DNA from: Bacteriovoracaceae bacterium
GTDB lineage: Bacteria > Bdellovibrionota > Bacteriovoracia > Bacteriovoracales > Bacteriovoracaceae
DNA: 24,506 nucleotides
Direction of reading: 5' to 3'
NCBI GenBank assembly: GCA_041583335.1
Contig: JBFHGF010000001.1
Location: forward strand, 1-24,506
Part shown: piece by piece, positions 943 through 21,537 of the stretch
Numbering within the stretch: position 1 is the first letter of the stretch
Layout of the letters: every line of letters starts with the position of its first letter
Translations under genes and position numbers: made by a program
The notes under the pieces: generated by a model
Seen by the model: only the letters and a program-made list of their open reading frames with translations
Told to the model about the DNA's origin: nothing
Database searches by the model: none

Positions 943-1380
943 CTATTTCTTTGAGGAACATTGGGCGCAAAGACCGGTCAATTCTAGGGTATGACTTTTC
1001 ATAGTAAAGCCTACTTTTTTGGCCATCTTCTTTAGTTGTTCATCGATACTGCAGTCAGTAAGGCATTCGACGGCATCGCATTCAATGCAAATAATATGGT
1101 GGTGGTGGTGGTGACCCTTCTTGGGCGCAAATTCGTAGAGCTTTATATCCTTGGAGGAGGGGACCGAGTGGATTAGTCCGGCCTCTTCTAATTTGGTGAT
1201 ATTTCTATAGATGGAGGATTCGTCCCAGGTGCTAAATACTTTCTTCTTTTTGAAGTCAAAAATCGAGAGTGGCTTTTTACTGGTCAAGTATTCACTAAGG
1301 ATTTGCTCACGTGCCTTTGTAAGCCTGAGGCCATGATCCTTGAGTATTTTTTTAATGGTATCCTGATTGGGACGACCCAT
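943..1380 (-). CDS. Fur-family transcriptional regulator (Fur or Zur-like)
   Basis: LRLTKAREQIL N-terminus, winged-helix SSIYRNITKLEEAGLI, HHHHHHIICIEC and C-terminal LELTGLCAQC (two CxxC motifs). Metal specificity cannot be fixed from motifs alone. Confidence 0.92.
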   Translation of the reverse strand: MGRPNQDTIKKILKDHGLRLTKAREQILSEYLTSKKPLSIFDFKKKKVFSTWDESSIYRNITKLEEAGLIHSVPSSKDIKLYEFAPKKGHHHHHHIICIECDAVECLTDCSIDEQLKKMAKKVGFTMKSHTLELTGLCAQCSSKK

Positions 1381-1391
1381 GAAAATCCTTT

Positions 1392-1410
1392 AATGAAGTG
1401 CGACTTCATT
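1392..1410. promoter_or_regulatory. Perfect 8-3-8 inverted repeat, candidate operator
   Basis: AATGAAGT-GCG-ACTTCATT lies 11 bp upstream of the Fur-family start codon, in the divergent intergenic region shared with the TonB-dependent receptor. Confidence 0.45.
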
Positions 1411-1614
1411 TTCTAATAGGCTTAGTGCGAAATGTGAATGGAAAAATATTTTACTCTTTGTGTCAAAATGTTCTTTATTGGAAATTGGGTAAATTTTACT
1501 AAATAACTAATTCTAATAGTTAAGATTAGATTGGCCATGAAATGTTGGGTTTACAACTCCCGACTTAAACCTTAATAACACGTCATCAATATTTTCAAAA
1601 TTAAGGAATTCCAC

Positions 1615-4116
1615 ATGTCTATCAAGCGCTCGATGTTTCCCATCGTGATTTTACTCTCAAGTATTCCCTCGTCTCTCACTTATGCTCAAGCAGCTGAATC
1701 TGAGCAAAGAATCGAGAAGATTTCTGTTACTGGCTCTTACATTAAGAAAATTGATGTTCAGGGGATCGCTCCTCTTGAGAATATCTCTAATGAGGAATTC
1801 ACAAAGAGAGGGGCCGTTGAAATTGGTGATGTGTTCAGAGAAACTCCGGCCTTTGAATCAGTTTATAGTGATGGTGGTCACGTACGTTTTCGTGGTCAAC
1901 ACGCAGGTAACGTTCTTATCCTTCTCAATGGTTTAAGAATGCCGAAACTTGATGGTGGTTATTACACTTCCATTAGAGATCTTCCTACTGCCGCCATTGG
2001 TAATGTTGAGATGCTTAAGGATAGTGGTTCGGCCATCTATGGTTCTGATGCCATGAGTGGGGTAATTAACTTTAAAACAAAGAAAGACTTCGATGGGGCA
2101 GAGGTAACAACCAGTATGAGTCGTGCTGAAATGACTTCTGCCGGTTTCCAGCAGAATTATTCTGCAACTTATGGGAAGAACTTCGCACGCGGTAATATTA
2201 TGGGAGTGCTTCAGTTTGAGAAAACAGCTGAAGTGAATGAGTTTGACCTCGGAAGTTACAACACACAACCTGATCGTTATGGAGCTGTGAAAACTTCTAA
2301 TGTGGATTTAGGAAATAATAGATCCTACGAAGCTGGAGCTCCATGTGCTGATGGTTCGGGTACCTGTCAGACAGATCCGCTTTTCTTTCAACAATCTCGT
2401 CCTAAGAACCACGATATCAGTGCTCTTCTTACTGGAGCATATGAATTTGATAGCTTTGATGTATCTTTCCTCGGTTTGTTTAACCGAAACTCAACGACTT
2501 CTCTTTCTAATCCACAGAGTGTGAAGTGGCTTGATGGAACGAATTCTTCCATTGCTGGTGGAGATTTAACGACAACTACTTATAACTCATACCTTAATGG
2601 TAGCGGAAACCTTGAAGTTAATGGCTCATTTGTTGATGAGCTTGGTGATTATATTACAGAGAAAGAGAGAAGTACTTACTCTTTTCAAGGTCGCGCAGGT
2701 GGTTACTTTGGATCAAGTGACTGGAGTTGGGAAGTTTCAACGGGAATTTCTGTTGCCGACTATAAGGCAACCGTGGTTAGTGGTGAGGCCAATCAAAATG
2801 CTCTTAAAGATATGGTAAAAGACGGAAGCTTCAACCTCATTGCAGCTCAAGGTTCAAAGTCCGATGTAAGTTCGGCCAAGATTAAACCCGTTTATCGTAA
2901 TAATAGCTTTCTTTTTCAGACCAGAGCAGTTGTAACCGGTGACCTCTTTGACCTAAGCTCTCTTTATTCTGCTGGTGGCGTCGTTAGTATGGCCGCCGGA
3001 GCAGAGATCCAAAAAGAAGATTTTGAATTTGATAATGATGCTTCTCTCTCTAATGGTACGGCATTGGCCCAAACTTCAGAGAACTTTTCAGGAAGTCGTG
3101 AGATTGAATCGGCCTTTGCTGAATTAAGTATTACACCTCATGAGAAGGTGGAAGTTTCTATGGCCTCGCGCTTTGATCACTATTCAGATGTAGGTAACAC
3201 TTTTAATCCTAAGCTTGGTGTTTCATACCGTCCTTGGGATTTTCTTCTTCTACGCTCTTCTGTAGGAACAGGTTTTAGAGCACCAGGGATTACCGATGTT
3301 TATGCAAAAGAAAATACAGGTCTTGTTGGCTTTACCGATGGAACCAATAGCTCTTTCGATTACTATACGGTAACTGAATACAATAAACCTGACCTCGAAG
3401 CAGAAGAAGCCCTTACTTATAACTTTGGTACTGTGATTCAGCCTTTTAAAAACGTAACTTTCCTCATTGATCAGTGGAACTATGAAGGGGAGAATGTCAT
3501 TACCAGTCTGGATGCGGATGACTACACCAATATCGAAAATAACTATGGTGCAGGAGTTCTTGAGGGAGTAGGGGTAACGGCCACACGTGATGGAAGTGGT
3601 AACCTAACTTCAATGAGAATTCCCAATGTGATCAATCTTGGGAAGAGAACACTTCGAGGTGTTGACGCTCAATTGGATATGAAGTTCAAAGCTTTTGCAG
3701 ATTACGATATCAAGTTTGGCTCAAACCTTATGTATATTTTCAAAAGAACAGATCAGCGTTTTAATTTTGAAAAAGAGTTTAAATACCAAAAGAGTTGGAA
3801 GAACAGAACCTACTTGGCCCTTTATAACCAAACTCATTATATGAGGCTCTCTGTTCTTACCGTTTCTCGTGATCGCCAAAATCAATATTCACGTAACGAG
3901 ATTGAAATCCCAAGTTACCATGAACTTGACTTCAACTACTCTCACACATGGAAATGGGGTGGAAAATTGACTTTTACAGTTAAGAACTTGGCCAACTCTC
4001 GTCCAAAGCCAAACTCAAACTTTAACCCTGTTCGTTTTGGGTACCTAAGTCAACAGCAGTCATCCTTCTCTCCTTTAAGAAGAAGATACTACTTAGGTTA
4101 TACTCATACCTTCTAA
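1615..4116 (+). CDS. TonB-dependent outer-membrane receptor
   Basis: Signal peptide, TonB-box-like EKISVTGS, plug motifs FRGQHAGNVLILLNG and VEMLKDSGSAIYGSDAMSGVINF, barrel motifs (RFDHYSDVGNTFNPKLG, LRSSVGTGFRAP), C-terminal YYLGYTHTF; AAGGA RBS. Confidence 0.95.
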   Translation: MSIKRSMFPIVILLSSIPSSLTYAQAAESEQRIEKISVTGSYIKKIDVQGIAPLENISNEEFTKRGAVEIGDVFRETPAFESVYSDGGHVRFRGQHAGNVLILLNGLRMPKLDGGYYTSIRDLPTAAIGNVEMLKDSGSAIYGSDAMSGVINFKTKKDFDGAEVTTSMSRAEMTSAGFQQNYSATYGKNFARGNIMGVLQFEKTAEVNEFDLGSYNTQPDRYGAVKTSNVDLGNNRSYEAGAPCADGSGTCQTDPLFFQQSRPKNHDISALLTGAYEFDSFDVSFLGLFNRNSTTSLSNPQSVKWLDGTNSSIAGGDLTTTTYNSYLNGSGNLEVNGSFVDELGDYITEKERSTYSFQGRAGGYFGSSDWSWEVSTGISVADYKATVVSGEANQNALKDMVKDGSFNLIAAQGSKSDVSSAKIKPVYRNNSFLFQTRAVVTGDLFDLSSLYSAGGVVSMAAGAEIQKEDFEFDNDASLSNGTALAQTSENFSGSREIESAFAELSITPHEKVEVSMASRFDHYSDVGNTFNPKLGVSYRPWDFLLLRSSVGTGFRAPGITDVYAKENTGLVGFTDGTNSSFDYYTVTEYNKPDLEAEEALTYNFGTVIQPFKNVTFLIDQWNYEGENVITSLDADDYTNIENNYGAGVLEGVGVTATRDGSGNLTSMRIPNVINLGKRTLRGVDAQLDMKFKAFADYDIKFGSNLMYIFKRTDQRFNFEKEFKYQKSWKNRTYLALYNQTHYMRLSVLTVSRDRQNQYSRNEIEIPSYHELDFNYSHTWKWGGKLTFTVKNLANSRPKPNSNFNPVRFGYLSQQQSSFSPLRRRYYLGYTHTF

Positions 4117-9861: not shown

Positions 9862-12039
9862 ATGAAAGAAATTCGTTATCATATTCAAGGAATGAGTTGT
9901 GCTAGTTGTGCAGCGAGCATCGAGAAAGAAGTTTCTCGTCTAAAAGGTGTTGAGTCGGCCAGTGTGAACTATGCCATGGAAACTGGCGCCTTCAAAATCG
10001 AAGAGGACAGCACAGCTGGTCTAGATCAAGAAATCCAAAAGAAAATTATCGAATTAGGTTTTACTTATTCGACGGAGAAAGTTGAAAAAGAAGAGGGGCA
10101 TGGAATCACCAAGTTCCTTGTAAGCTTTTCCCTGTCTCTGATTATTTTCTTCTTGGCCATGGGCCCAGGAAAGGGCTGGCCGTCGCCCAAAACAAATTGG
10201 TTTATACAGATGATCCTTGCCGCTCCTGTGTGGCTGTGGATTGGATTTAAGTTTCAAAAGAGTATGATGGAATTCTTTCGCACGGGAAGATCCAATATGA
10301 ATACTCTAATCGGACTTGGGACTTCAAGTGCATTTATCTATAGCTTATTTATTACGATTTTCAATGATGTCTCGCTTGAAATAGGAATGACACAGAAAGT
10401 GTATTTTGAAGCGGTCGGATTCATTATTTCCTTTGTTTACTTAGGTAACTTCTTTGAAGCAAAGGCCAAGAAGAAAACGAAGAAGGCCCTAAATTCTCTT
10501 TTTCAGCTCTCTTCTAAGTTTGCCTATATTAGGAAAGAGGCCGAGGTTGTTGAAGTACGTGTACAAGATGTAGAAATTGGTGATGTCTTGATTGTAAAGC
10601 CGGGAGAGAAAATTCCGGTTGATGGAAAGGTCGTAAAAGGGGAGTCGTCGGTTGACGAGTCCATGCTAACCGGTGAACCCATTCCTGTCGCTAAAAAGGT
10701 TGGGGATAAGCTCTTTTCCGGAACGATAAATGGAGAAGGGGTTATCGAGTATAAGGCCCAAAAGGTAGGACCGGATACTTTCCTCTCTAGTATTATTAAG
10801 TTTGTTGAAGAGGCACAGAATTCAAAACCAGAAATTCAGCTCTATGCCGATAAGGTGAGCTCCATTTTTACTCCCGTTGTAGTGGGAATTGGTATTTTGA
10901 CTTTTGTGCTTTGGTTCTTCTTTGGGCCAGCGCCTGCTTGGGGTAATGCCATCTCTAACTTTATTGCTGTTATGGTTATTGCTTGTCCTTGTGCTCTTGG
11001 GCTGGCCACCCCTACTGCTGTTGTCGTGGCCACGGGCAAGGCATCGCTAAATGGTATTTTAATCAGTGGTGGTGCCGTTTTAGAAAAGGCGGTGGATATC
11101 GATGCTATTATTTTTGATAAGACGGGAACGTTAACTCAAGGGAAACCGTCAGTAATTGATTTTAAATTCAATGCTACTGGAGAGTTGGCCGTGCTCAAAG
11201 TTGTGGCCGCATTAGAACAGTATTCGGAGCATATCATTTCCAAGGCCATTAATCAGTATGCCAAAGATAGAGGGGTTGAGCTTGTCGACCCTGACTCCTT
11301 TCAAGTCGTAAAAGGAAGAGGAATCGAAGGTGAGGTTGAAGGTACTGCGATTCTGGTAGGAAATTCGGAGTTTCTTCAAGAGAGAAGTGTTTCTTTGGAT
11401 GAATCATTAAATTCAACAAAGGTTGGAACTGAAGTTTTCATTGCTCAGGACTCTCAGCATATAGGAACTTTGATTATCGGAGATGAAGTCAAAGAGGAAG
11501 TAAAGGCCGTTCTTAGTGCGATAAAAGAAAAGGGGATCAAAACCATTCTGATGACGGGTGATAATGAAAGGGTTGCCAATCAGGTGTGTGCCGAAGTGGG
11601 AATAGATGAATACTACGCCCATTGCATGCCCATGGATAAATCTGCCAAGGTTGAATCTTTACAGAAAGAGGGACATAGGGTCGCTATGATTGGAGACGGA
11701 ATTAATGATGCTCCGGCCTTGGCCAAAGCTAATTTGAGTATCGCCATGGGCACAGGAACTGATGTTGCGATTAATGCTTCAGATGTAACCCTAGTAAAAG
11801 GTGACCTGAGAAAATTTCTCGCCTTTATGGACCTAAGCTACAAAACGATGGGGATTATTAAGCAGAATCTTTTTCTCTCCCTTATATACAATACCCTCCT
11901 CATTCCAGTTGCGGCCGGAATTCTTGTCCTCTTTAATGGACCAATGATGCCGCCTGTTTTGGCCAGTATTGCCATGGGGATGAGTAGTATTTCTGTAGTG
12001 AGCAATAGCTTGAGAATTAAATTTAATAATAATATTTGA
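9862..12039 (+). CDS. copA: Heavy-metal P1B-type ATPase, Cu(I)-type (CopA-like)
   Basis: N-terminal HMA GMSCASC, TGEP, CPC (375-377), DKTGT (Asp419), [13 protein letters not shown] (LIYNTL) and MGMSS transmembrane motifs typical of the P1B-1 subgroup. Confidence 0.92.
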
Positions 12040-12047
12040 GGACCTTT

Positions 12048-12533
12048 ATGAAACTAATCACTCTTTCACTTCTCTTTCTTTTTGTTATTACCGCACAAGG
12101 ACGAACAGACCTTAAGGGAGAAGATCAGAAGTCTGTTCTTCATGTTCTAGAGATTAATGAGTCTCTTCATAAGAATTTCTTCGACTATAAGGGATCTTTG
12201 GTTGAAGAAGATGCTAAGAGACTAGAGCTGGCCATTGCTCAAATTAAGAATAAAGAATTGAGTAAATTATTGAAAGAAACTCGATCAGAGCTCTCTAAAA
12301 TTAAAAGTGCTCAAGAGAGAGAAGAGAATAATGTCGCCTATCACAAAGCAAGTCTTGGGCTTATCAAATTATTAGAGCAGTATAATCCAGGTAAGAGGTA
12401 TAATGCTTACTCTTGTCCTATGGTTAAAAAGAAGTGGGTTCAAAATAGTGAAGATAAGCTTCGCGTTCATAATCCCTATGCCCCTGAAATGCCCCATTGT
12501 GGTCAAAGAGATACTGAGTACGGTGAGGAATAA
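12048..12533 (+). CDS. Exported DUF3347-like putative metal-binding protein
   Basis: Signal peptide, helical core and C-terminal YSCPM...KWVQ...VHNPY..EMPHCG motif as in DUF3347 proteins. Start set at ATG 12048 (GAGG RBS) instead of TTG 12036. Confidence 0.7.
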   Translation: MKLITLSLLFLFVITAQGRTDLKGEDQKSVLHVLEINESLHKNFFDYKGSLVEEDAKRLELAIAQIKNKELSKLLKETRSELSKIKSAQEREENNVAYHKASLGLIKLLEQYNPGKRYNAYSCPMVKKKWVQNSEDKLRVHNPYAPEMPHCGQRDTEYGEE

Positions 12534-13322: not shown

Positions 13323-15125
13323 ATGCCCTTTTTTAATAAGTTGAAATTAATTGTTAGACAGTTGGACTATAATTTATGGCTGTCCATTTGTCTTATTATT
13401 ACAGGAGCGCTCCTCTCATTTTATTACGGCAGTAATTTAGAGAAAGCGATGAGTTTTGCTCTTAATGATCAGTCGGTTATTTTGAGAACTCTCAATGATA
13501 TCGAAAAATTTGAGATTAGAATAAAGAATCATTTCTATCTCGGTGATAAGAATAGAGAAAACCTAAATTTAGAAGAGATCAAGAACTTAAGAATAGAAAT
13601 TGATTACCTTTTAAAGTCTCTAGCGGAGAAAGAAAAGTACCCACGAATCAAGTTACTTAAGAGAAGGTGGGAAAAGGAAGTCTCTACTATTTCAGAGATT
13701 TTGAATGTTATTGATAAAGAGCATATCGATTTTAGAAATCTAGAATCTTTCCTCTATTCATTTAAGGAATTATCTCAAGAAACTTTGGCCAATAATCAAG
13801 AAACGAAAAGCTTTGAAGTCGTAAAGTTAAAGTTATTGAGAATCTTTACGATCTCTATTATTACATTCGCCTTCTTTCTTATTTTAAGAAAACTGGTTTA
13901 TTTTAAGTTAGAAGCGGACATGATGAATATCTACTTTGATGAGACCATCAAAGGTCTGCCTCGAACTAAAATGTTCTTAAATCATCGCTCAATGTATTCC
14001 TTGAAAAAGAAGATTGACCAGCAAAATGAAAACTTCCTTTTGCTAAAAGATCAATGTGATGACTATCTCAATATTATTAAAGAGACTTTTATCGTTTGTC
14101 GTCCTGATTTTACGATTACCAAGTGCTCTAAAGAGATACGTGAGCTTGTGGGGTGGGAGTCATTTGAGTTAGAGAATAAGAAGTTATCTTTTCTCTTTGA
14201 GAGGAAAGAAGATTTTGAAGATTTGGAACTGAAGTACTATCAAAATGGAAAGAAACTCTTCAATATACCCTTACGCTGTCAAACCAGTACCGGTGTGCTG
14301 GTAAATGTACAGGGAACTTTTGTTGATTACTACGATAAAATTTTACACAAGAATATCATCCTAATCATCCTGAAAGATGGTACGGCCGAAATGAAGGTGG
14401 AAGAGCTAACCGAGAAATCAAAACATCTCTTTCACAATAGTAAAATGGCCTCCCTAGGTGAGATGTCTGGTAGTATTGCCCATGAAATCAATAACCCTCT
14501 TATGATTATAAAGGGATCGGTAAGTCGCCTTAGTAAAGTTCTCCTGAGAGAGGGGAATTATAGTGAGCCTGTAGAGATTTTATTAGATCGCCTTAACCGA
14601 ATGATTGAGAGGGTAAGTTCCATTATCTATGTTATGCAAAGTTTTGGAGATAGTGGAGACAGAACAGAAAAAGAATTTGTTCTCGTTAAGGATCTTATTG
14701 TTACTCTCTTAGAGTTACACGCGCAGAAACTACGTTCAAAAGGTATTCGTATCGACTTTTCTCTTTCTAACCCTGATATACAAGTTAAAATAAATAAGTC
14801 AGATATTGATCAGGCCTTAATGAATATCTTTACCAATGCGGTCGAAGGAATTACGCAATCGGGAGCAGATTCGGGTAATATCTCGCTTCGAGTTGTCTTT
14901 GAGAAAGAGCAGCTCTATATGCTCATTCGCAATGATGGAGCACCCATCGAAAAGCATTTGGCCTCTAAGATTTTTGAGCCTTTCTTTTCTTCAAAGGATA
15001 AGGGAACAGGAATGGGGTTGGCCATTGCCCATACTCTATGTCAGCGCAATGAAGTGGATTTGCGCTTAGACTGCCTATACCCCGTAACCTTTAGGCTTGA
15101 ATTCTATGGTGCTACCAAAGTATAG
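13323..15125 (+). CDS. Membrane sensor histidine kinase (2 TM, periplasmic helical domain, PAS-like, HisKA, HATPase)
   Basis: Two hydrophobic segments around a periplasmic region, a PAS-like segment, H-box LGEMSGSIAHEINNPL, N-box QALMNIFTNA, NDG, FEPFFSSK and GTGMGL. Confidence 0.93.
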   Translation: MPFFNKLKLIVRQLDYNLWLSICLIITGALLSFYYGSNLEKAMSFALNDQSVILRTLNDIEKFEIRIKNHFYLGDKNRENLNLEEIKNLRIEIDYLLKSLAEKEKYPRIKLLKRRWEKEVSTISEILNVIDKEHIDFRNLESFLYSFKELSQETLANNQETKSFEVVKLKLLRIFTISIITFAFFLILRKLVYFKLEADMMNIYFDETIKGLPRTKMFLNHRSMYSLKKKIDQQNENFLLLKDQCDDYLNIIKETFIVCRPDFTITKCSKEIRELVGWESFELENKKLSFLFERKEDFEDLELKYYQNGKKLFNIPLRCQTSTGVLVNVQGTFVDYYDKILHKNIILIILKDGTAEMKVEELTEKSKHLFHNSKMASLGEMSGSIAHEINNPLMIIKGSVSRLSKVLLREGNYSEPVEILLDRLNRMIERVSSIIYVMQSFGDSGDRTEKEFVLVKDLIVTLLELHAQKLRSKGIRIDFSLSNPDIQVKINKSDIDQALMNIFTNAVEGITQSGADSGNISLRVVFEKEQLYMLIRNDGAPIEKHLASKIFEPFFSSKDKGTGMGLAIAHTLCQRNEVDLRLDCLYPVTFRLEFYGATKV

Positions 15126-15199
15126 AAATTCAATAAATTTATCGCAAATTCAAGAGGAATTCCCTTTGCAACCTCCTTTGTGCACTTTAGAATATTGGA

Positions 15200-16390
15200 A
15201 TGAAAAGGAATTTCTTAATCACTATTGCAAGCACGGCCAGTTTTTTATCGACGATGGCCTTTGGTGCACAAGAAAAAAATGATCTTGAGGCCTTAAAGTT
15301 AAAAGTTGAAAAACTAGAACAGAAGCTTTTGCTAGAAGATCACAACTCTGGAAATGTCTCCTCCTTTGAAGCTCAACACTTAAATATTGGTGGCTATTTC
15401 AATCTTACGGGTACCAGCTGGAATCTTCCACATAGTAAAAATCAATATAACTTTGATGAAGTTGAGTTCGGTCTCATGATTAGAGGGCAAGTTAATCCCT
15501 CTCTTTCCTTTTTTACTCATATTGAATTTGAGCAAGAAGTACAGATTATAAATAACCACGCTCCCTTTCGTTCTTTCCAGGATGTCGAAACACAGGTTGA
15601 TCCGGAAGATGTTATTTTAACTTATGATGCTAGTGATGACCTCTCCTTTAGTATGGGAGCCCTGATTACTCCCTTCGGAGTGAGCAATAGGGAACATTTT
15701 GATTTCCTACGTTGGCAAAATGAAAAACCCTTGGCCCTAAGAGAAAATAGTGGAGATTTTATTTTCTTTGATGATCACGTTATGGGGGTTTCCGTAAATT
15801 ATAATTACAACCTGCAACGGGGTTTTATTGAAAGCTCCCTCTATGCTGGGTCCAGTAATGTGGGAGCGAGCCGCATTGTGAATGGTTATAGACTGGGGTA
15901 TCGCTCTGAGAATGGACAGCTCAAAGTAGGAACCAGTATGCAGACAGGACAGAGGGCCGCTCACGATCGATACTATACTTTCGGATTCGATGCTAAGGTT
16001 GAACTAGGCGCCTTTGGAATGAGATCAGAATTCTTTTTTACTGACCTGAGACCCGGAGTCTACGGGCAGGATAGTAATCCCATGTCATTCTATTTTGAAC
16101 CTTGGTATCACTTAGTCCATAACCGACATGTTCTCTATGGAAGAGTTGACTACTTACATGACACAATCGGATTGTATAAAGTTGATCACGACAGAAATAG
16201 CGCAACATCAGCGATAGTTGACCCTGTAGAACTCTACGAGTTCACTTTGGGATATAACTACTTACCTTGGCCATATTGGAGGATATCCTTTGGGGTGACT
16301 CAGTCGCAGTATGTGGGGAAGCATTCTCATTTAAATGGAGAAAAGCGTGACTTCACAAGTTTAGAGTGGGGGACAGTATTAAGTTTTTAA
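15200..16390 (+). CDS. Outer-membrane beta-barrel, porin-like (resembles phosphate-selective-porin-like families)
   Basis: Signal peptide, short coiled coil (DLEALKLKVEKLEQKL), GGYF, SFFTHIEFE, G.LITPFG..N..H, alternating amphipathic strands, C-terminal Phe. Confidence 0.75.
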   Translation: MKRNFLITIASTASFLSTMAFGAQEKNDLEALKLKVEKLEQKLLLEDHNSGNVSSFEAQHLNIGGYFNLTGTSWNLPHSKNQYNFDEVEFGLMIRGQVNPSLSFFTHIEFEQEVQIINNHAPFRSFQDVETQVDPEDVILTYDASDDLSFSMGALITPFGVSNREHFDFLRWQNEKPLALRENSGDFIFFDDHVMGVSVNYNYNLQRGFIESSLYAGSSNVGASRIVNGYRLGYRSENGQLKVGTSMQTGQRAAHDRYYTFGFDAKVELGAFGMRSEFFFTDLRPGVYGQDSNPMSFYFEPWYHLVHNRHVLYGRVDYLHDTIGLYKVDHDRNSATSAIVDPVELYEFTLGYNYLPWPYWRISFGVTQSQYVGKHSHLNGEKRDFTSLEWGTVLSF

Positions 16391-16890
16391 GGACTTTCTT
16401 TTTCAAGAGCCTATTACTGCTCATTAGTTTCGTTGTAGTAACTCCTGTTGCCGTTGCTAAGGATTCTGATGTTGCTAAAGAGAAGGCCATTAGCAAGAAA
16501 GAAGAATTGAAAAAGTGGGTTGTTGTTGTGCATGCAGATAATCCCATTGATCAAATTACGCTCACAAACTTAAGACGCTACCTCCTAAAGGAAAATATTT
16601 ATTGGTCCAAAAACTTCCAAGTGGTGCCCATCATTATGGACAGCAGCGATCCACGCTTTAATGATTTTACAACCCTCTTCCTCAGCTTTTCTCAAGCGCA
16701 ATATCCAAGGTTCTGGATTGAGCAAAAATTTACGAGAGGTTTAACAAGACCAAAAGAAGGGGATGTTAAAACTACTTTAAAGCTAATTGGTATTCTAAAA
16801 GGTGGAATATCTGTTATTCCTGAAAAGGATTGGAATCATCTAGAAAGACCTTCTGTGAAGTCTGTAGATATAATCTTCGATGAAAAATAA
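16366..16890 (+). CDS. Short exported protein resembling a partial phosphate-binding (PBP2/PstS-like) domain
   Basis: GTG start overlapping the porin end; signal peptide ending VAVA; VVVVHADNPIDQITLTNLRRYLL...W, FW...F..G...P and GGISVIP resemble small 'phosphate ABC substrate-binding-like' proteins. The start is uncertain. Confidence 0.6.
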   Translation: MGDSIKFLRTFFFKSLLLLISFVVVTPVAVAKDSDVAKEKAISKKEELKKWVVVVHADNPIDQITLTNLRRYLLKENIYWSKNFQVVPIIMDSSDPRFNDFTTLFLSFSQAQYPRFWIEQKFTRGLTRPKEGDVKTTLKLIGILKGGISVIPEKDWNHLERPSVKSVDIIFDEK

Positions 16891-17248
16891 ATGTATCGTC
16901 ATTATTGCTTTTGTCGCGGGGTGTATGCTCTGTTTTTGGGGCCACGAATGGTTTTCCCTCTCTGCTGTTGTCTCATCGTGCCTTGTTGGTCTTCTTGGGA
17001 GTTTTGTTACCAGTAAGAAATATCCTATCGTCAACTCGTGCCCAGCTGCTATCTATAGTGGATCTTTTGCGGGTATGTGCTCGGCCACCATGATTAAATC
17101 TTTTGGAGAGTTATTTTCGGTAGCGCTAATTGGGGGAATTACTTATATATCTCTAGATTGCTATTTTAAAGGTATAGGTGGCAAACTGGGGACCGTGGCC
17201 TTTACTTCTGTTGCTATATTCTATCTTTTGAATAAAGGATTTCTCTGA
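16880..17248 (+). CDS. Small multi-pass membrane protein of unknown function (paralog A)
   Basis: About four hydrophobic segments; motifs AIYSGSFAGM and FKGIGGKLGTVAF; overlaps both neighbours. Confidence 0.8.
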   Translation: MKNKCIVIIAFVAGCMLCFWGHEWFSLSAVVSSCLVGLLGSFVTSKKYPIVNSCPAAIYSGSFAGMCSATMIKSFGELFSVALIGGITYISLDCYFKGIGGKLGTVAFTSVAIFYLLNKGFL

Positions 17249-17670
17249 TGGAAGGTTTGCTACCTTTTCTCATTATTCTCTTTGGGGCACGAGTCACTTT
17301 TGCTCTTTCTTCTCTGAGACATTGGGGACCGATTCGCTCCTCTTCCTTTGTAAGCTTAGTCTTTGTTTTGGTGATGAAGTTGATTCCTTATCACTGGCCT
17401 ATGAATTCCGACATTCTCTTTTTTGGAGGAAGTTTCATTGGGATGTCGGGGGTGGATCGCTTGTCTCGCTTTTTTCTCCCTTTTTCTTGCCTGTTGTTTT
17501 ATCTCTTCTTTTATAATGTCGGTCCGTACATTAAAGGAATGGGTGGAGGGCTTGGGCTGGGAGCTTTTCTTAGTGTTGGGCCTTTGGCCTTAGTGAATTA
17601 CCTGCTTCATCTTTATAGAGATAGAGATAGAGATAGAGATAAGAGGTTGGATTCTACTGAATCGATCTGA
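17248..17670 (+). CDS. Small multi-pass membrane protein of unknown function (paralog B)
   Basis: Hydrophobic; motifs FFGGSFIGMS and IKGMGGGLGLGAF parallel those of paralog A; TGATG stop/start overlap. Confidence 0.8.
   Translation: MEGLLPFLIILFGARVTFALSSLRHWGPIRSSSFVSLVFVLVMKLIPYHWPMNSDILFFGGSFIGMSGVDRLSRFFLPFSCLLFYLFFYNVGPYIKGMGGGLGLGAFLSVGPLALVNYLLHLYRDRDRDRDKRLDSTESI
17615..17641 (+). repeat. Hexanucleotide tandem repeat (ATAGAG)x4 plus ATA
   Basis: Four exact copies at 17615-17638, encoding an RD dipeptide run in the C-terminal tail of 17248..17670. Confidence 0.9.
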
Positions 17671-19911: not shown

Positions 19912-21537
19912 ATGCTTAACGTCAGCAATATCTCAAAAGTACAAGGTGGAGAAACCCTCTACTCCAAAGTAAATTTTCAAATTTACCCCGGAGAGAAGGT
20001 AGGCCTAGTGGGTCCTAATGGTACAGGGAAGACCACCCTCTTTCGTTTGATCATTGGCGAAGATAAGAACTATGAAGGACAGATTAGTTTTTCTGATAAG
20101 TTGAGAATGGCCTATTTCTCGCAAAATGTTGGAGAGATGAAAGGAGAGACCGCACTTGAAGTGGTTCTTAGTGGCGATGAGAAGGTTAGTGTTTTGCAAG
20201 AGCAGCTAACTGAATTTGAAACAAAGCTTTGTGATCCTGACCTCGATCCCGACGAAATGAATGATATCTTGATGAAGATGGGAGATGTGCAAATAGAATT
20301 TGAAAAGCGCGGTGGCTATGATCTCGAAAGTCGTGCAGAAGAAGTGCTTACCGGGCTTGGGATCGCTCCTGCCGATCATCGCAAAAATATAGAAGAATTT
20401 AGTGGGGGGTGGAAAATGAGAATTGCCCTTGCCCGCGTTCTCGTGATTAAACCAGACCTCATCGTTATGGATGAGCCCACCAACTACCTTGATATGGAAA
20501 CTATTTTATGGCTTGAAGAGTGGCTGCAAAACTATGAAGGTGCTGTCTTTATGACGACTCACGATCGTCACTTTATGAATAATATTTGTAAGAAGATTGT
20601 GGAAGTTTCTCATAAGCAAGTTACCGTTTACTCGGGTAACTACGACTTCTACGAAAAAGAGAGGAACCTAAGAAGAGATCAGTTGATCTCTGAGGCCAAG
20701 CGACAGGCCGACAGTATCGCCAAGGATGAAGAATTTATCGCCAAGTTTAAAGCGAGAGCTTCCCATGCGGCCCAAGTTCAATCACGTATTAAGAAATTAG
20801 AAAAAATTGATAAAGTCTATGTCCCACCAGAAGAGGAGACAATCTCATTTACTTTCCCTACCCCTCCTCGTGGTGGAGATGATGTTGTGGTCGTGAAGAA
20901 CCTCAAGAAAGTATGGAATAAGCCAGATGGATCAGAACTTCTCGTCTTTGAAGATCTCGATATGATGGTGAAAAGGCAAGAATGCTTGGCCGTTGTGGGA
21001 GTTAATGGAGCTGGGAAGTCTACATTGCTTAAAACCATTTGTGGGCAAACCGAGGCCACAGAAGGGGAGGTCGTGATTGGACCTTCTATTAAGGTTGGCT
21101 ACTTTAGCCAATTTTCTTTTGATGTTCTTGATCCCGAAAGTTCTGTCATTGATGAGGTTCAATCTTCACTACCGGAAGCGAGTGAAGGTTATCTACGAAA
21201 TCTCTTGGCCGCCTTTCTCTTTCGAGGGGATGATGTGAAAAAGAAAGTGAAACATCTCTCAGGTGGAGAGAAGAGTCGATTGATTCTCGCGGTTCTTTTG
21301 AGTCAAAATAATAACCTCTTAGTTCTGGATGAGCCTACCAACCATTTAGATATTCAGTCTCGGGAAGTTCTTCTTGACGCATTGAGAAGCTTTGAAGGAA
21401 CCATCCTCTTTGTGAGCCACGATAGACACTTTCTCAAGGAATTGACTCGTAAGGTTATCGAAGTGGATAAGTCAAAAGTGACTCTATATCCTGGAAATTA
21501 TGAATATTACTTAGATAAGAAATTGAGTGAAGCTTAA
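19912..21537 (+). CDS. ABC-F family ATP-binding protein
   Basis: Two ABC cassettes (GPNGTGKT/FSGGW/DEPTNYLD and GVNGAGKST/LSGGE/DEPTNHLD) joined by a helical linker; no transmembrane segments. Confidence 0.94.
   Translation: MLNVSNISKVQGGETLYSKVNFQIYPGEKVGLVGPNGTGKTTLFRLIIGEDKNYEGQISFSDKLRMAYFSQNVGEMKGETALEVVLSGDEKVSVLQEQLTEFETKLCDPDLDPDEMNDILMKMGDVQIEFEKRGGYDLESRAEEVLTGLGIAPADHRKNIEEFSGGWKMRIALARVLVIKPDLIVMDEPTNYLDMETILWLEEWLQNYEGAVFMTTHDRHFMNNICKKIVEVSHKQVTVYSGNYDFYEKERNLRRDQLISEAKRQADSIAKDEEFIAKFKARASHAAQVQSRIKKLEKIDKVYVPPEEETISFTFPTPPRGGDDVVVVKNLKKVWNKPDGSELLVFEDLDMMVKRQECLAVVGVNGAGKSTLLKTICGQTEATEGEVVIGPSIKVGYFSQFSFDVLDPESSVIDEVQSSLPEASEGYLRNLLAAFLFRGDDVKKKVKHLSGGEKSRLILAVLLSQNNNLLVLDEPTNHLDIQSREVLLDALRSFEGTILFVSHDRHFLKELTRKVIEVDKSKVTLYPGNYEYYLDKKLSEA

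What the first reader, a model, noticed from the sequence alone, without database searches (positions are those of the whole stretch)
13323..17670. Candidate trans-envelope sensing or uptake system: orphan kinase, porin, mini binding protein and a membrane pair
Seen: five co-directional genes, the last four physically chained (overlaps of 25, 11 and 1 nt). They encode one component per envelope layer: an outer-membrane barrel, a small periplasmic PBP-like protein (about 145 aa mature) and two inner-membrane proteins, preceded by a kinase with a periplasmic domain. There is no ABC ATPase, standard ABC permease or response regulator in the locus. Established: canonical PstS-type proteins are about twice this size and work with ABC permeases and ATPases; some kinases sense ligand through a periplasmic binding protein. 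Inference: the porin admits, or docks with, a ligand or partner, the half-size binding protein relays it to the kinase, and the membrane pair imports or dissipates it. I recall porin plus short PBP-like genes beside signal transducers elsewhere but cannot confirm this here, and I know of no characterised system that includes the membrane pair.
Basis: partly seen in the sequence, partly recalled or inferred. Interest (0 to 1): 0.72.

Follow-up and report, generated by a model that had tools for sequence, protein, structure and literature searches.

The report
Porin, half-PstS protein, sensor kinase cassette
A predatory marine bacterium carries a sensor kinase next to an outer-membrane pore and a secreted "half" of a phosphate-binding protein, a gene set that recurs beside many kinds of membrane sensors and probably feeds them an outside signal; the two small membrane proteins attached here are a separate gene pair that joined the operon only in this lineage.

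Summary
The five genes are real, and their coordinates and overlaps (25, 11 and 1 nt) are as described.

**Core module.** The core is an OprO/P-family porin plus a secreted one-lobe PstS-like protein beside a two-TM signal transducer. I tested this in 42 non-redundant Bdellovibrionota loci:
- 38 have the porin within two genes.
- 33 have a large signalling protein within three genes, against 2 of 283 genes further away.
- Outputs vary: kinases, hybrid kinases and class III cyclases.

**Small protein.** It is homologous to lobe II of PstS only. It lacks the Arg/Ser-Gly-Thr phosphate ligands, so orthophosphate is an unlikely signal.

**Membrane pair.** It is not part of the module. It is a free-standing tandem pair in 39 of 151 family genomes, with changing neighbours. 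It is joined to the cassette only in four genomes of this genus. The two partners have opposite K+R bias, which points to an antiparallel heterodimer of unknown fold.

**Precedents.** A published but only predicted counterpart exists: VpvABC of Vibrio cholerae (porin, periplasmic binding protein, diguanylate cyclase). This scan has noted the same cassette more than ten times on other DNA.

**Verdict.** This is a new variant of a known but mechanistically unstudied kind. How it signals is inferred, not shown.

The parts
13323..15125 (+). Sensor histidine kinase: TM1 (residues 18-36), about 137-aa periplasmic region without a Pfam match, TM2 (174-192), PAS, HisKA with the H-box 'AHEINNPL', HATPase_c. 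No response regulator in the contig.
   Evidence: Its sensor region is found only in the genomes that carry the tight cassette.
15126..15199 (+). 74-nt kinase-porin spacer. It holds a weak sigma-70-like site (TTGCAA-16-TAGAAT, 15166-15193) and no terminator-like hairpin. The gaps in the three orthologous loci are 44, 32 and 77 nt.
   Evidence: Promoter-like sites in the region are no more frequent than in shuffles, so this does not settle the transcription units.
15200..16390 (+). Outer-membrane porin of the OprO/OprP family: signal peptide, about 25-aa N-terminal coiled-coil segment, barrel, C-terminal Phe.
   Evidence: The protein alone has no Pfam hit. A profile of 39 cassette porins, with this one as first row, matches OprP 2o4v (E 7.6e-11) and OprO 4rjx (E 1.4e-10) over nearly full length. 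Relatives give weak Porin_O_P and Porin_4 hits. N-termini and C-termini.
16366..16890 (+). Secreted one-lobe PstS-like protein (half-PBP), about 143 aa mature. The signal peptide ends AVA|KD and has no lipobox Cys. It overlaps the porin gene by 25 nt.
   Evidence: AF2 model pLDDT 72; the best Foldseek matches are PstS proteins. The family profile matches residues 103-218 of 290 of 1twy (E 4.6e-12) and other PstS structures. 17 of 60 family members hit PF12849. The phosphate-ligand motif is replaced.
16880..17248 (+). Small membrane protein A (122 aa, five predicted helices; motifs IYSGSFAGMCS and GIGGKLGT). K+R bias puts its N-terminus inside. It overlaps the half-PBP gene by 11 nt.
   Evidence: (pLDDT 91.5). 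No Pfam or PDB relative.
17248..17670 (+). Small membrane protein B (140 aa), a paralogue of A with the same motifs (FFGGSFIGMSG, GMGGGLG) and a charged C-terminal tail. Its K+R bias is opposite to that of A. Start and stop codons overlap by 1 nt.

Best explanation
The locus combines two units.

**Unit 1** is a sensory input cassette. It consists of a dedicated OprO/P-family porin and a secreted single-lobe PstS-like protein that serve the adjacent two-TM histidine kinase.

Inferred mechanism: something that passes or occupies the porin changes the state of the half-PBP. The half-PBP cannot close on a ligand the way a two-lobe binding protein does. It therefore most likely acts by docking onto the kinase's periplasmic domain, the porin's periplasmic face, or a second copy of itself. 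This switches the kinase, which signals to a response regulator encoded elsewhere. The signal is probably not orthophosphate.

**Unit 2** is the pair of small membrane proteins. They form an antiparallel heterodimer, probably a small channel or transporter of unknown substrate. The pair exists on its own in many relatives. It became translationally coupled to the cassette only in this genus-level lineage. Any functional link to the sensor would be a local addition, not part of the core mechanism.

**Shown:** gene structure, homologies, one-lobe nature, loss of the phosphate ligands, gene associations, opposite charge bias of the pair.

**Inferred:** every physical interaction, the direction of signalling, the ligand.
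For: **Cassette association**
- In 42 non-redundant half-PBP loci from a 301-genome sample of the phylum, 38 have a porin-family gene within 2 genes. In 28 it lies directly upstream on the same strand, with gaps of -62 to +50 nt.
- 33 have a signalling protein of at least 350 aa within 3 genes. The background is 2 of 283 genes at 5 or more genes away.
- Nearly all the transducers share the window kinase's topology: TM, 140-160 periplasmic residues, TM. Their outputs differ: HAMP-GAF-HK, HAMP-PAS-HK, hybrid HK and class III cyclase. This pattern is expected of an input module.
- One sensor-region sequence group is shared by kinases and cyclases.
- The same pair sits beside an MCP and an EAL protein on Pseudoalteromonas and Caballeronia replicons.

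**Half-PBP**
- It matches PstS lobe II only.
- M91 and D95-P96-R97 replace the Arg and Ser-Gly-Thr ligands.

**Kinase**
- Its sensor region is found only in cassette-bearing genomes.

**Membrane pair**
- It is present as a tandem pair in 39 of 151 family genomes. It lies far from the half-PBP in G012, G074, G110 and G148, and its neighbours vary.
- The K+R bias is opposite in 35/35 A-type and 16/16 B-type proteins.

**Published parallel**
Against: - No interaction has been predicted or measured.
- The kinase sits upstream of the porin, across a 74-nt gap that holds a weak promoter-like site. The commoner order is porin, half-PBP, transducer.
- The kinase's periplasmic region shows no detectable similarity to those of the other cassette-linked transducers.
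- In this genus the kinase, the cassette and several flanking genes (P-type ATPase, thioesterase) are present or absent together. Co-occurrence within the genus therefore does not single out the kinase.
- The half-PBP to membrane-protein-A overlap is conserved in all four genomes. This could mean a real functional link that the wider comparison cannot see.
- The genomes compared are related, so the counts overstate independence.
Confidence: 0.6

Rival explanations
1. Uptake system. The porin admits a solute, the half-PBP captures it, and the two small membrane proteins form a new kind of binding-protein-dependent secondary transporter (loosely like TTT or TRAP systems). The kinase only monitors or regulates it.
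For: The four genes from porin to membrane protein B are translationally coupled here, and the half-PBP/membrane-protein-A overlap is kept in all four genomes. The pair has Gly-rich motifs and an antiparallel arrangement typical of small transporters.
Against: - In 20 other family loci the pair stands alone with no binding protein or porin next to it.
- The half-PBP family elsewhere pairs with transducers, never with this pair.
- One lobe cannot enclose a ligand the way transporter SBPs do.
- The lobe II ligand residues are lost.
Confidence: 0.15
2. Envelope-state sensor. The half-PBP sits on the porin and reports outer-membrane or porin integrity to the kinase, as RcsF with OmpA/C/F, YfiB-YfiR-YfiN or MipA-MipB-ParS do, rather than reporting a diffusible ligand.
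For: The half-PBP has lost the ligand-binding residues and one lobe. The pairing with an outer-membrane protein is tight. The window-type porins carry a periplasmic coiled-coil segment that could serve as a docking site.
Against: - Many cassette porins lack the coiled coil.
- The porin family is that of solute-specific channels.
- There is no sequence link to RcsF or MipB. None of the 60 half-PBP family members scanned hit any family other than PBP_like_2, apart from two single weak hits; whether the library's YfiR model would have detected a relative was not checked.
Confidence: 0.15
3. Neighbours without a shared function. The kinase is an unrelated orphan with its own transcript, and only porin plus half-PBP (with or without the pair) form a unit.
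For: There is a 74-nt gap with a promoter-like site. The kinase sensor region is unrelated in sequence to other cassette-linked sensors. vpvAB-type pairs without an adjacent transducer are reported in many Proteobacteria (PMC12456836), and one was seen on an Alteromonas replicon.
Against: - 33 of 42 loci have a transducer within 3 genes.
- The kinase has the same two-TM, roughly 140-aa periplasmic layout as the others.
- It is the only transducer near the cassette in all four genomes, with gaps of 32-77 nt and no terminator-like hairpin.
Confidence: 0.1

Closest known systems
VpvABC of Vibrio cholerae (vibrio phase variation operon; PMC12456836, PMC8754643)
   Same: It is described as a predicted three-part module: porin (VpvA), periplasmic binding protein (VpvB) and membrane-bound signalling enzyme (VpvC). 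An unknown signal is thought to enter through the porin. vpvAB pairs are conserved widely, with or without vpvC. VpvA and VpvB contribute to the c-di-GMP level.
   Different: - The output there is a diguanylate cyclase; here it is a histidine kinase placed upstream.
- There is no membrane pair in VpvABC.
- I could not reach the Vibrio sequences, so homology of VpvA and VpvB to the window's proteins is not tested here.
- The mechanism of VpvABC is itself only predicted.
Binding-protein-dependent receptors: PstS-CtpL (P. aeruginosa), LuxP-LuxQ, TorT-TorS, maltose-binding protein-Tar (review PMC8050422)
   Same: A periplasmic PBP-fold protein docks on the periplasmic domain of a membrane transducer and controls it. 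For PstS-CtpL the binding protein belongs to the same superfamily (PBP_like_2).
   Different: - Those binding proteins have two lobes and enclose a known ligand.
- Most are encoded with a transporter.
- None has a dedicated porin gene.
- Here there is one lobe, the ligand residues are lost and there is no transporter.
OprP/OprO phosphate and diphosphate porins with PstS (Pseudomonas Pho regulon)
   Same: The protein families are the same on both sides: an OprO/P-type barrel and a PstS-type fold.
   Different: - It is not linked to PstCAB.
- The binding protein is half size and lacks the phosphate ligands.
- It is linked to signalling genes.
- The Arg ladder and Lys cluster of OprP were not examined here.
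Trans-envelope sensors that use an outer-membrane partner: RcsF with OmpA/C/F and IgaA, YfiB-YfiR-YfiN, MipA-MipB-ParS (PMC10936184)
   Same: An outer-membrane protein and a periplasmic partner jointly control an inner-membrane signalling protein.
   Different: No sequence relationship was detected. Those systems sense envelope damage or antibiotics, and their outer-membrane parts are not OprO/P-type porins.
Paired small membrane proteins of opposite orientation (Fluc/CrcB pairs, SMR pairs such as EbrAB, DUF606 pairs)
   Same: Tandem paralogous genes of about 120-140 aa with opposite positive-inside bias, implying an antiparallel heterodimer.
   Different: No sequence or structural match to any of them. 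There are five predicted helices and distinct motifs (GSFxGM, GxGGxLG). The substrate is unknown.

Membership tests
PstS / PBP_like_2 (PF12849) phosphate-binding proteins | Detectable sequence homology to the family | tested here: met
   Met at family level. The profile of 60 relatives matches PstS structures (1twy E 4.6e-12, 4exl 9.6e-11), and 17 of 60 members hit PF12849. The window protein alone gives no Pfam hit.
PstS / PBP_like_2 (PF12849) phosphate-binding proteins | Two lobes joined by a hinge (Venus-flytrap architecture, about 250-320 aa) | tested here: not met
   The mature protein is about 143 aa. The alignment covers only residues 103-218 of 290 in 1twy and 77-187 of 265 in 4exl. 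Foldseek aligns about 125-131 columns of 240-260-residue targets.
PstS / PBP_like_2 (PF12849) phosphate-binding proteins | Lobe II phosphate ligands (Arg135 and Ser139-Gly140-Thr141 in E. coli PstS numbering, from established structural work) | tested here: not met
   The motif RE..SGTR in 1twy and 4q8r aligns with M91-D-S-S-D95-P96-R97-F98. The family consensus also lacks it.
PstS / PBP_like_2 (PF12849) phosphate-binding proteins | Encoded with PstC/PstA permeases and the PstB ATPase | tested here: not met
   No such genes are in the contig or beside the 42 surveyed relatives.
OprO/OprP porins (Porin_O_P, PF07396) | Sequence homology over the barrel | tested here: met
   Met at family level. 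The profile of 39 cassette porins matches 2o4v (7.6e-11) and 4rjx (1.4e-10) across positions 26-343. Relatives give weak PF07396 hits. The window protein alone gives none.
OprO/OprP porins (Porin_O_P, PF07396) | Signal peptide and C-terminal aromatic residue of outer-membrane barrels | tested here: met
   It has an N-terminal signal peptide and ends ...GTVLSF. Nearly all cassette porins end in F, Y, W or L.
OprO/OprP porins (Porin_O_P, PF07396) | Arginine ladder and lysine cluster that give anion selectivity | not tested
VpvABC-type porin / binding protein / transducer module | Adjacent genes for a porin, a small periplasmic binding protein and a membrane signalling protein | tested here: met
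   Here the order is transducer, porin, binding protein.
VpvABC-type porin / binding protein / transducer module | Homology of the porin and the binding protein to VpvA and VpvB | not testable with these tools
   No Vibrio chromosome could be reached. A last profile search returned no protein named from Vibrio. The paper's list of genera with vpvAB (Alteromonas, Shewanella and others) overlaps the genera where I found the pair, which is only a lead.
VpvABC-type porin / binding protein / transducer module | Diguanylate cyclase output | tested here: not met
   The output here is HisKA plus HATPase_c.
Two-component sensor histidine kinases (HisKA class) | HisKA dimerisation domain with H-box, plus HATPase_c | tested here: met
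   PF00512 at residues 378-435 and PF02518 at 493-579. The H-box 'AHEINNPL' is visible in the sequence.
Two-component sensor histidine kinases (HisKA class) | Cognate response regulator encoded nearby | tested here: not met
   No Response_reg domain was found in the ORFs of the 24.5-kb contig scanned against Pfam. The contig ends limit this.
Antiparallel paired small membrane proteins (Fluc, SMR, DUF606 type) | Tandem paralogues with opposite positive-inside bias | tested here: met
   A-type: 3.89 against 0.46 K+R on the two sides (35/35). B-type: 0.75 against 3.94 (16/16). They always occur as a tandem pair.
Antiparallel paired small membrane proteins (Fluc, SMR, DUF606 type) | Homology or shared fold with one of those families | tested here: inconclusive
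   There were no Pfam hits above noise and no PDB sequence hit. Foldseek's best E was 1.3. The VIA-align best Z was 7.5, within the range common for helical models.

The most novel reading that the evidence does not exclude
In this lineage the half-PBP has been recruited to serve both the kinase and the antiparallel membrane pair. Together these would form a complete envelope-spanning path (porin, periplasmic shuttle, inner-membrane channel) that couples uptake or release of an unknown solute to signalling. This would be a binding-protein-dependent system built from a one-lobe binding protein and a transporter family with no known relatives.
Probability: 0.12. Interest if true: 0.8.

Novelty: new variant of a known kind. 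Interest (0 to 1): 0.52.

Why it matters
Input cassettes that can attach to kinases, cyclases and chemoreceptors alike are rare, and this one includes its own outer-membrane pore.

Working out how a one-lobe binding protein can signal would add a new mode to binding-protein-dependent sensing. It would also explain the still unexplained VpvA and VpvB proteins of Vibrio cholerae, which influence biofilm signalling.

The Bacteriovoracaceae are predators of other bacteria, and the cassette is common in them, so it may report prey or envelope cues.

The membrane pair is a compact family with a confident predicted structure, no known relatives and clear antiparallel topology. That makes it a tidy case for studying small heterodimeric transporters.

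Tried and rejected
- **The look-up of encoding contigs was closed.** I rebuilt neighbourhoods with the genome search and the fetch from genomes instead.
- **The protein-atlas search could not read the membrane protein.**
With the tight alignment it found only the three known congeners.
- **Window kinase's sensor region compared with other cassette-linked sensors.** phmmer clustering, an iterated HMM and hhalign found nothing (best hhalign probability 0.9%). Pfam at E up to 1 found nothing credible.
- **Membrane pair.** It gave no Pfam, PDB-sequence, Foldseek or VIA-align match that stands above noise. A supposed natural A-B fusion in G066 turned out to be protein B fused to a GNAT-like tail.
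- **Expression.** No RNA holder was listed for the stretch.
- **Literature.** Searches for a described half-size PstS with a porin and a sensor found nothing.
- **Congeners without the cassette.** The site differs over a larger block (no ATPase, no thioesterase), so presence or absence does not test the kinase link specifically.
- **Identifying VpvB among named homologues failed.**

Full report
**1. The observation**

The window is a whole 24,506-base contig of a metagenome-assembled genome (3.47 Mb, 602 contigs, 83% complete). The closest public relatives are titled Bacteriovoracaceae or Halobacteriovoraceae MAGs, so the phylum is Bdellovibrionota, the predatory bacteria.

- kinase 13323-15125
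- porin-like protein 15200-16390
- small secreted protein 16366-16890
- two small membrane proteins, 16880-17248 and 17248-17670

The overlaps are 25, 11 and 1 nt, and the kinase-porin gap is 74 nt.

The kinase has PAS_9, HisKA and HATPase_c domains. Two hydrophobic segments at residues 18-36 and 174-192 enclose about 137 residues.

No response regulator, ABC permease or transporter ATPase lies in the contig. The ABC protein at 19912-21537 is an ABC-F type.

**2. The small secreted protein is one lobe of a PstS-type binding protein**

- Alone it hits no Pfam or NCBIfam model.
- Its tight family is rare: six clusters among 5.8 billion proteins.
- A profile of those six found 735 representatives at E up to 0.001, nearly all 135-170 aa.
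- Of 60 such proteins, 17 hit PBP_like_2.
- A profile of the 60 matches solved PstS proteins (1twy E 4.6e-12; 4exl, 4q8r, 4gd5 about 1e-10). The match covers only the middle stretch that forms lobe II: residues 103-218 of 290 in 1twy.
- The AlphaFold model (pLDDT 72) finds the same structures first.

In PstS the lobe II phosphate ligands are an Arg and a Ser-Gly-Thr loop. This is established knowledge from the E. coli structure. The motif RE..SGTR of 1twy and 4q8r aligns with M91-D-S-S-D95-P96-R97-F98 in the window protein, and the family consensus also lacks it.

With one lobe missing and the remaining ligands replaced, canonical phosphate binding is very unlikely.

**3. The barrel is an OprO/P-family porin**

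- Alone it has no Pfam hit.
- Relatives next to half-PBP genes give weak Porin_O_P or Porin_4 hits.
- A profile of 39 of them, with the window protein first, matches OprP (2o4v, 7.6e-11) and OprO (4rjx, 1.4e-10) over almost the full length.
- The window's subgroup has a coiled-coil segment of about 25 residues right after the signal peptide. Another subgroup lacks it. Nearly all end in an aromatic residue.

**4. Gene association**

I searched 301 genomes of the phylum with the half-PBP profile and fetched about 16 kb around the short-type hits. I called ORFs and clustered them. The window's four close orthologues were counted once, which leaves 42 loci:
- 38 have a porin-family gene within two genes. 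In 28 it is directly upstream on the same strand, with gaps from -62 to +50 nt. In 9 it is divergent.
- 33 have a signalling protein of at least 350 aa within three genes. At five or more genes away the figure is 2 of 283 genes.

The genomes are related, so these are not independent trials, but they span many families of the phylum.

Ten of the neighbouring transducers were scanned against Pfam: HAMP-GAF, HAMP-PAS and plain histidine kinases, two hybrid kinases and one class III cyclase. Almost all of the neighbouring transducers have the same layout as the window kinase: TM, 140-160 residues outside, TM.

Their outside regions fall into several sequence groups. The largest group (17 members) is shared by kinases and cyclases. 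The window kinase's outside region is not detectably related to any of them and matches no Pfam sensor domain.

Outside the phylum, family members are recorded from Nitrospinaceae and Vicinamibacteria. On RefSeq replicons of Pseudoalteromonas and Caballeronia the pair is annotated 'porin' (or hypothetical) plus 'phosphate ABC transporter substrate-binding protein'. It sits next to a chemoreceptor and a large EAL protein respectively.

**5. The kinase link in this lineage**

The whole block from the P-type ATPase to the glutaminase is syntenic in three congeners (G005, G008, G009). Kinase-porin gaps there are 32-77 nt.

The kinase's sensor region is found only in those genomes, not in two congeners (G003, G006) that lack the cassette, and not at meaningful level in the other genomes of the 121-genome family sample; one further genome gave a marginal partial match at E 9e-4. 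In congeners without the cassette the neighbouring genes are also missing. This therefore shows co-inheritance, not a specific functional tie.

No terminator-like hairpin separates kinase and porin. A weak promoter-like site lies just before the porin start, but such sites are no commoner here than in shuffled sequence. Transcription units remain open, and no RNA data could be found.

**6. The membrane pair is a separate unit**

The two proteins are paralogues that share the motifs GSFxGM and GxGGxLG.

A profile finds them, always as a tandem pair, in 39 of 151 genomes of the family. This includes G003, a congener in which the half-PBP was not found.

In G012, G074, G110 and G148 the pair lies 40 kb to more than 1 Mb from the half-PBP gene. 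In 20 fetched loci its neighbours differ from genus to genus and include neither porin nor binding protein. In G174 it lies about 5 kb upstream of a cassette, the only other case of proximity.

Only in the window's four genomes is it overlapped with the half-PBP gene.

The AlphaFold model of protein A is confident (pLDDT 91.5, five helices). It has no convincing match among solved structures, in Pfam or among PDB sequences.

Counting Lys and Arg in the loops gives opposite biases:

| Type | K+R, side 1 | K+R, side 2 | Proteins with this bias |
|---|---|---|---|
| A | 3.89 | 0.46 | 35 of 35 |
| B | 0.75 | 3.94 | 16 of 16 |

By the positive-inside rule the two partners insert in opposite orientations. 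This is the hallmark of antiparallel heterodimers such as Fluc or SMR pairs. Much of the B-type bias comes from its charged C-terminal tail.

**7. Mechanism**

The evidence best supports the following reading. Porin plus half-PBP is an input cassette for the adjacent membrane transducer, here the orphan kinase.

A single lobe cannot close on a ligand. Signalling is therefore more likely to go through docking to the sensor domain, to the porin, or through dimerisation. All of this is inference.

The rivals cannot be excluded: an uptake system using the membrane pair, an envelope-integrity sensor, or mere adjacency of the kinase. Their weights are given in the rival explanations.

**8. Comparison with what is known**

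The review of binding-protein-dependent receptors (PMC8050422) lists PstS-CtpL, LuxP-LuxQ, TorT-TorS and others. All use two-lobe proteins and none has a dedicated porin.

[quoted passage not shown] An earlier paper called VpvA and VpvB hypothetical proteins of unknown function (PMC8754643).

This is the closest published system. I could not obtain the Vibrio sequences, so homology is untested here.

Earlier notes of this scan describe the same cassette on more than ten other genomes. They are AI notes. I used them as leads and repeated the key tests on this phylum.

**9. Verdict**

It does not hold for the membrane pair, and it is weakened for phosphate.

This is a new variant of a kind that is known in outline (VpvABC-like modules, binding-protein-dependent sensors) but has never been studied mechanistically. 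The local novelty is the coupling to an antiparallel membrane pair of unknown fold.

Noticed in passing
window 16880-17670; L090-L109: The two small membrane proteins belong to a family found, with the queries used, only in Bacteriovoracaceae-type genomes (39 of 151). They always occur as a tandem pair with opposite K+R bias, a confident five-helix model and no known relatives. This is a candidate new family of antiparallel heterodimeric channels or transporters.
   Followed up: partly
L096 6442-7257 (G066:C3): In one genome the B-type membrane protein is fused at its C-terminus to about 140 residues that look like an acetyltransferase (GNAT-like motifs by eye). This was not scanned against Pfam.
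   Followed up: no
L069 (G275:C59) and L054 (G176:C1): Cassette duplications. L069 has two porin plus half-PBP pairs about 7 kb apart on one contig. L054 has two tandem porin genes before one half-PBP.
   Followed up: no
L044, L045, L055 (genus g36): Three loci have half-PBP followed by a HAMP-GAF kinase but no adjacent porin. A conserved protein of about 1230 aa lies convergent downstream.
   Followed up: no
G000:C127:4882-5067 (L110): The window's own genome gave only one weak PBP_like_2 match (E 0.004, below cut-off), so no clear full-length PstS was found. The assembly is 83% complete, so this shows little.
   Followed up: no
window 9862-12533: A P-type ATPase with an N-terminal CxxC metal-binding domain (probably copper export) overlaps by 4 nt a 165-aa secreted protein with a sub-threshold match to the Leptospira LIC13259/LIC11441 family (69 bits, cut-off 100).
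   Followed up: no
window 943-4116: A Fur-family regulator lies divergent from a TonB-dependent receptor, a likely iron-uptake pair.
   Followed up: no
L113 (Alteromonas macleodii plasmid pKD01, 256458-258035): Here the order is reversed: the half-PBP gene comes first and a 386-aa hypothetical protein second. No transducer is adjacent, and the pair sits beside a type IV CRISPR-Cas cluster.
   Followed up: no
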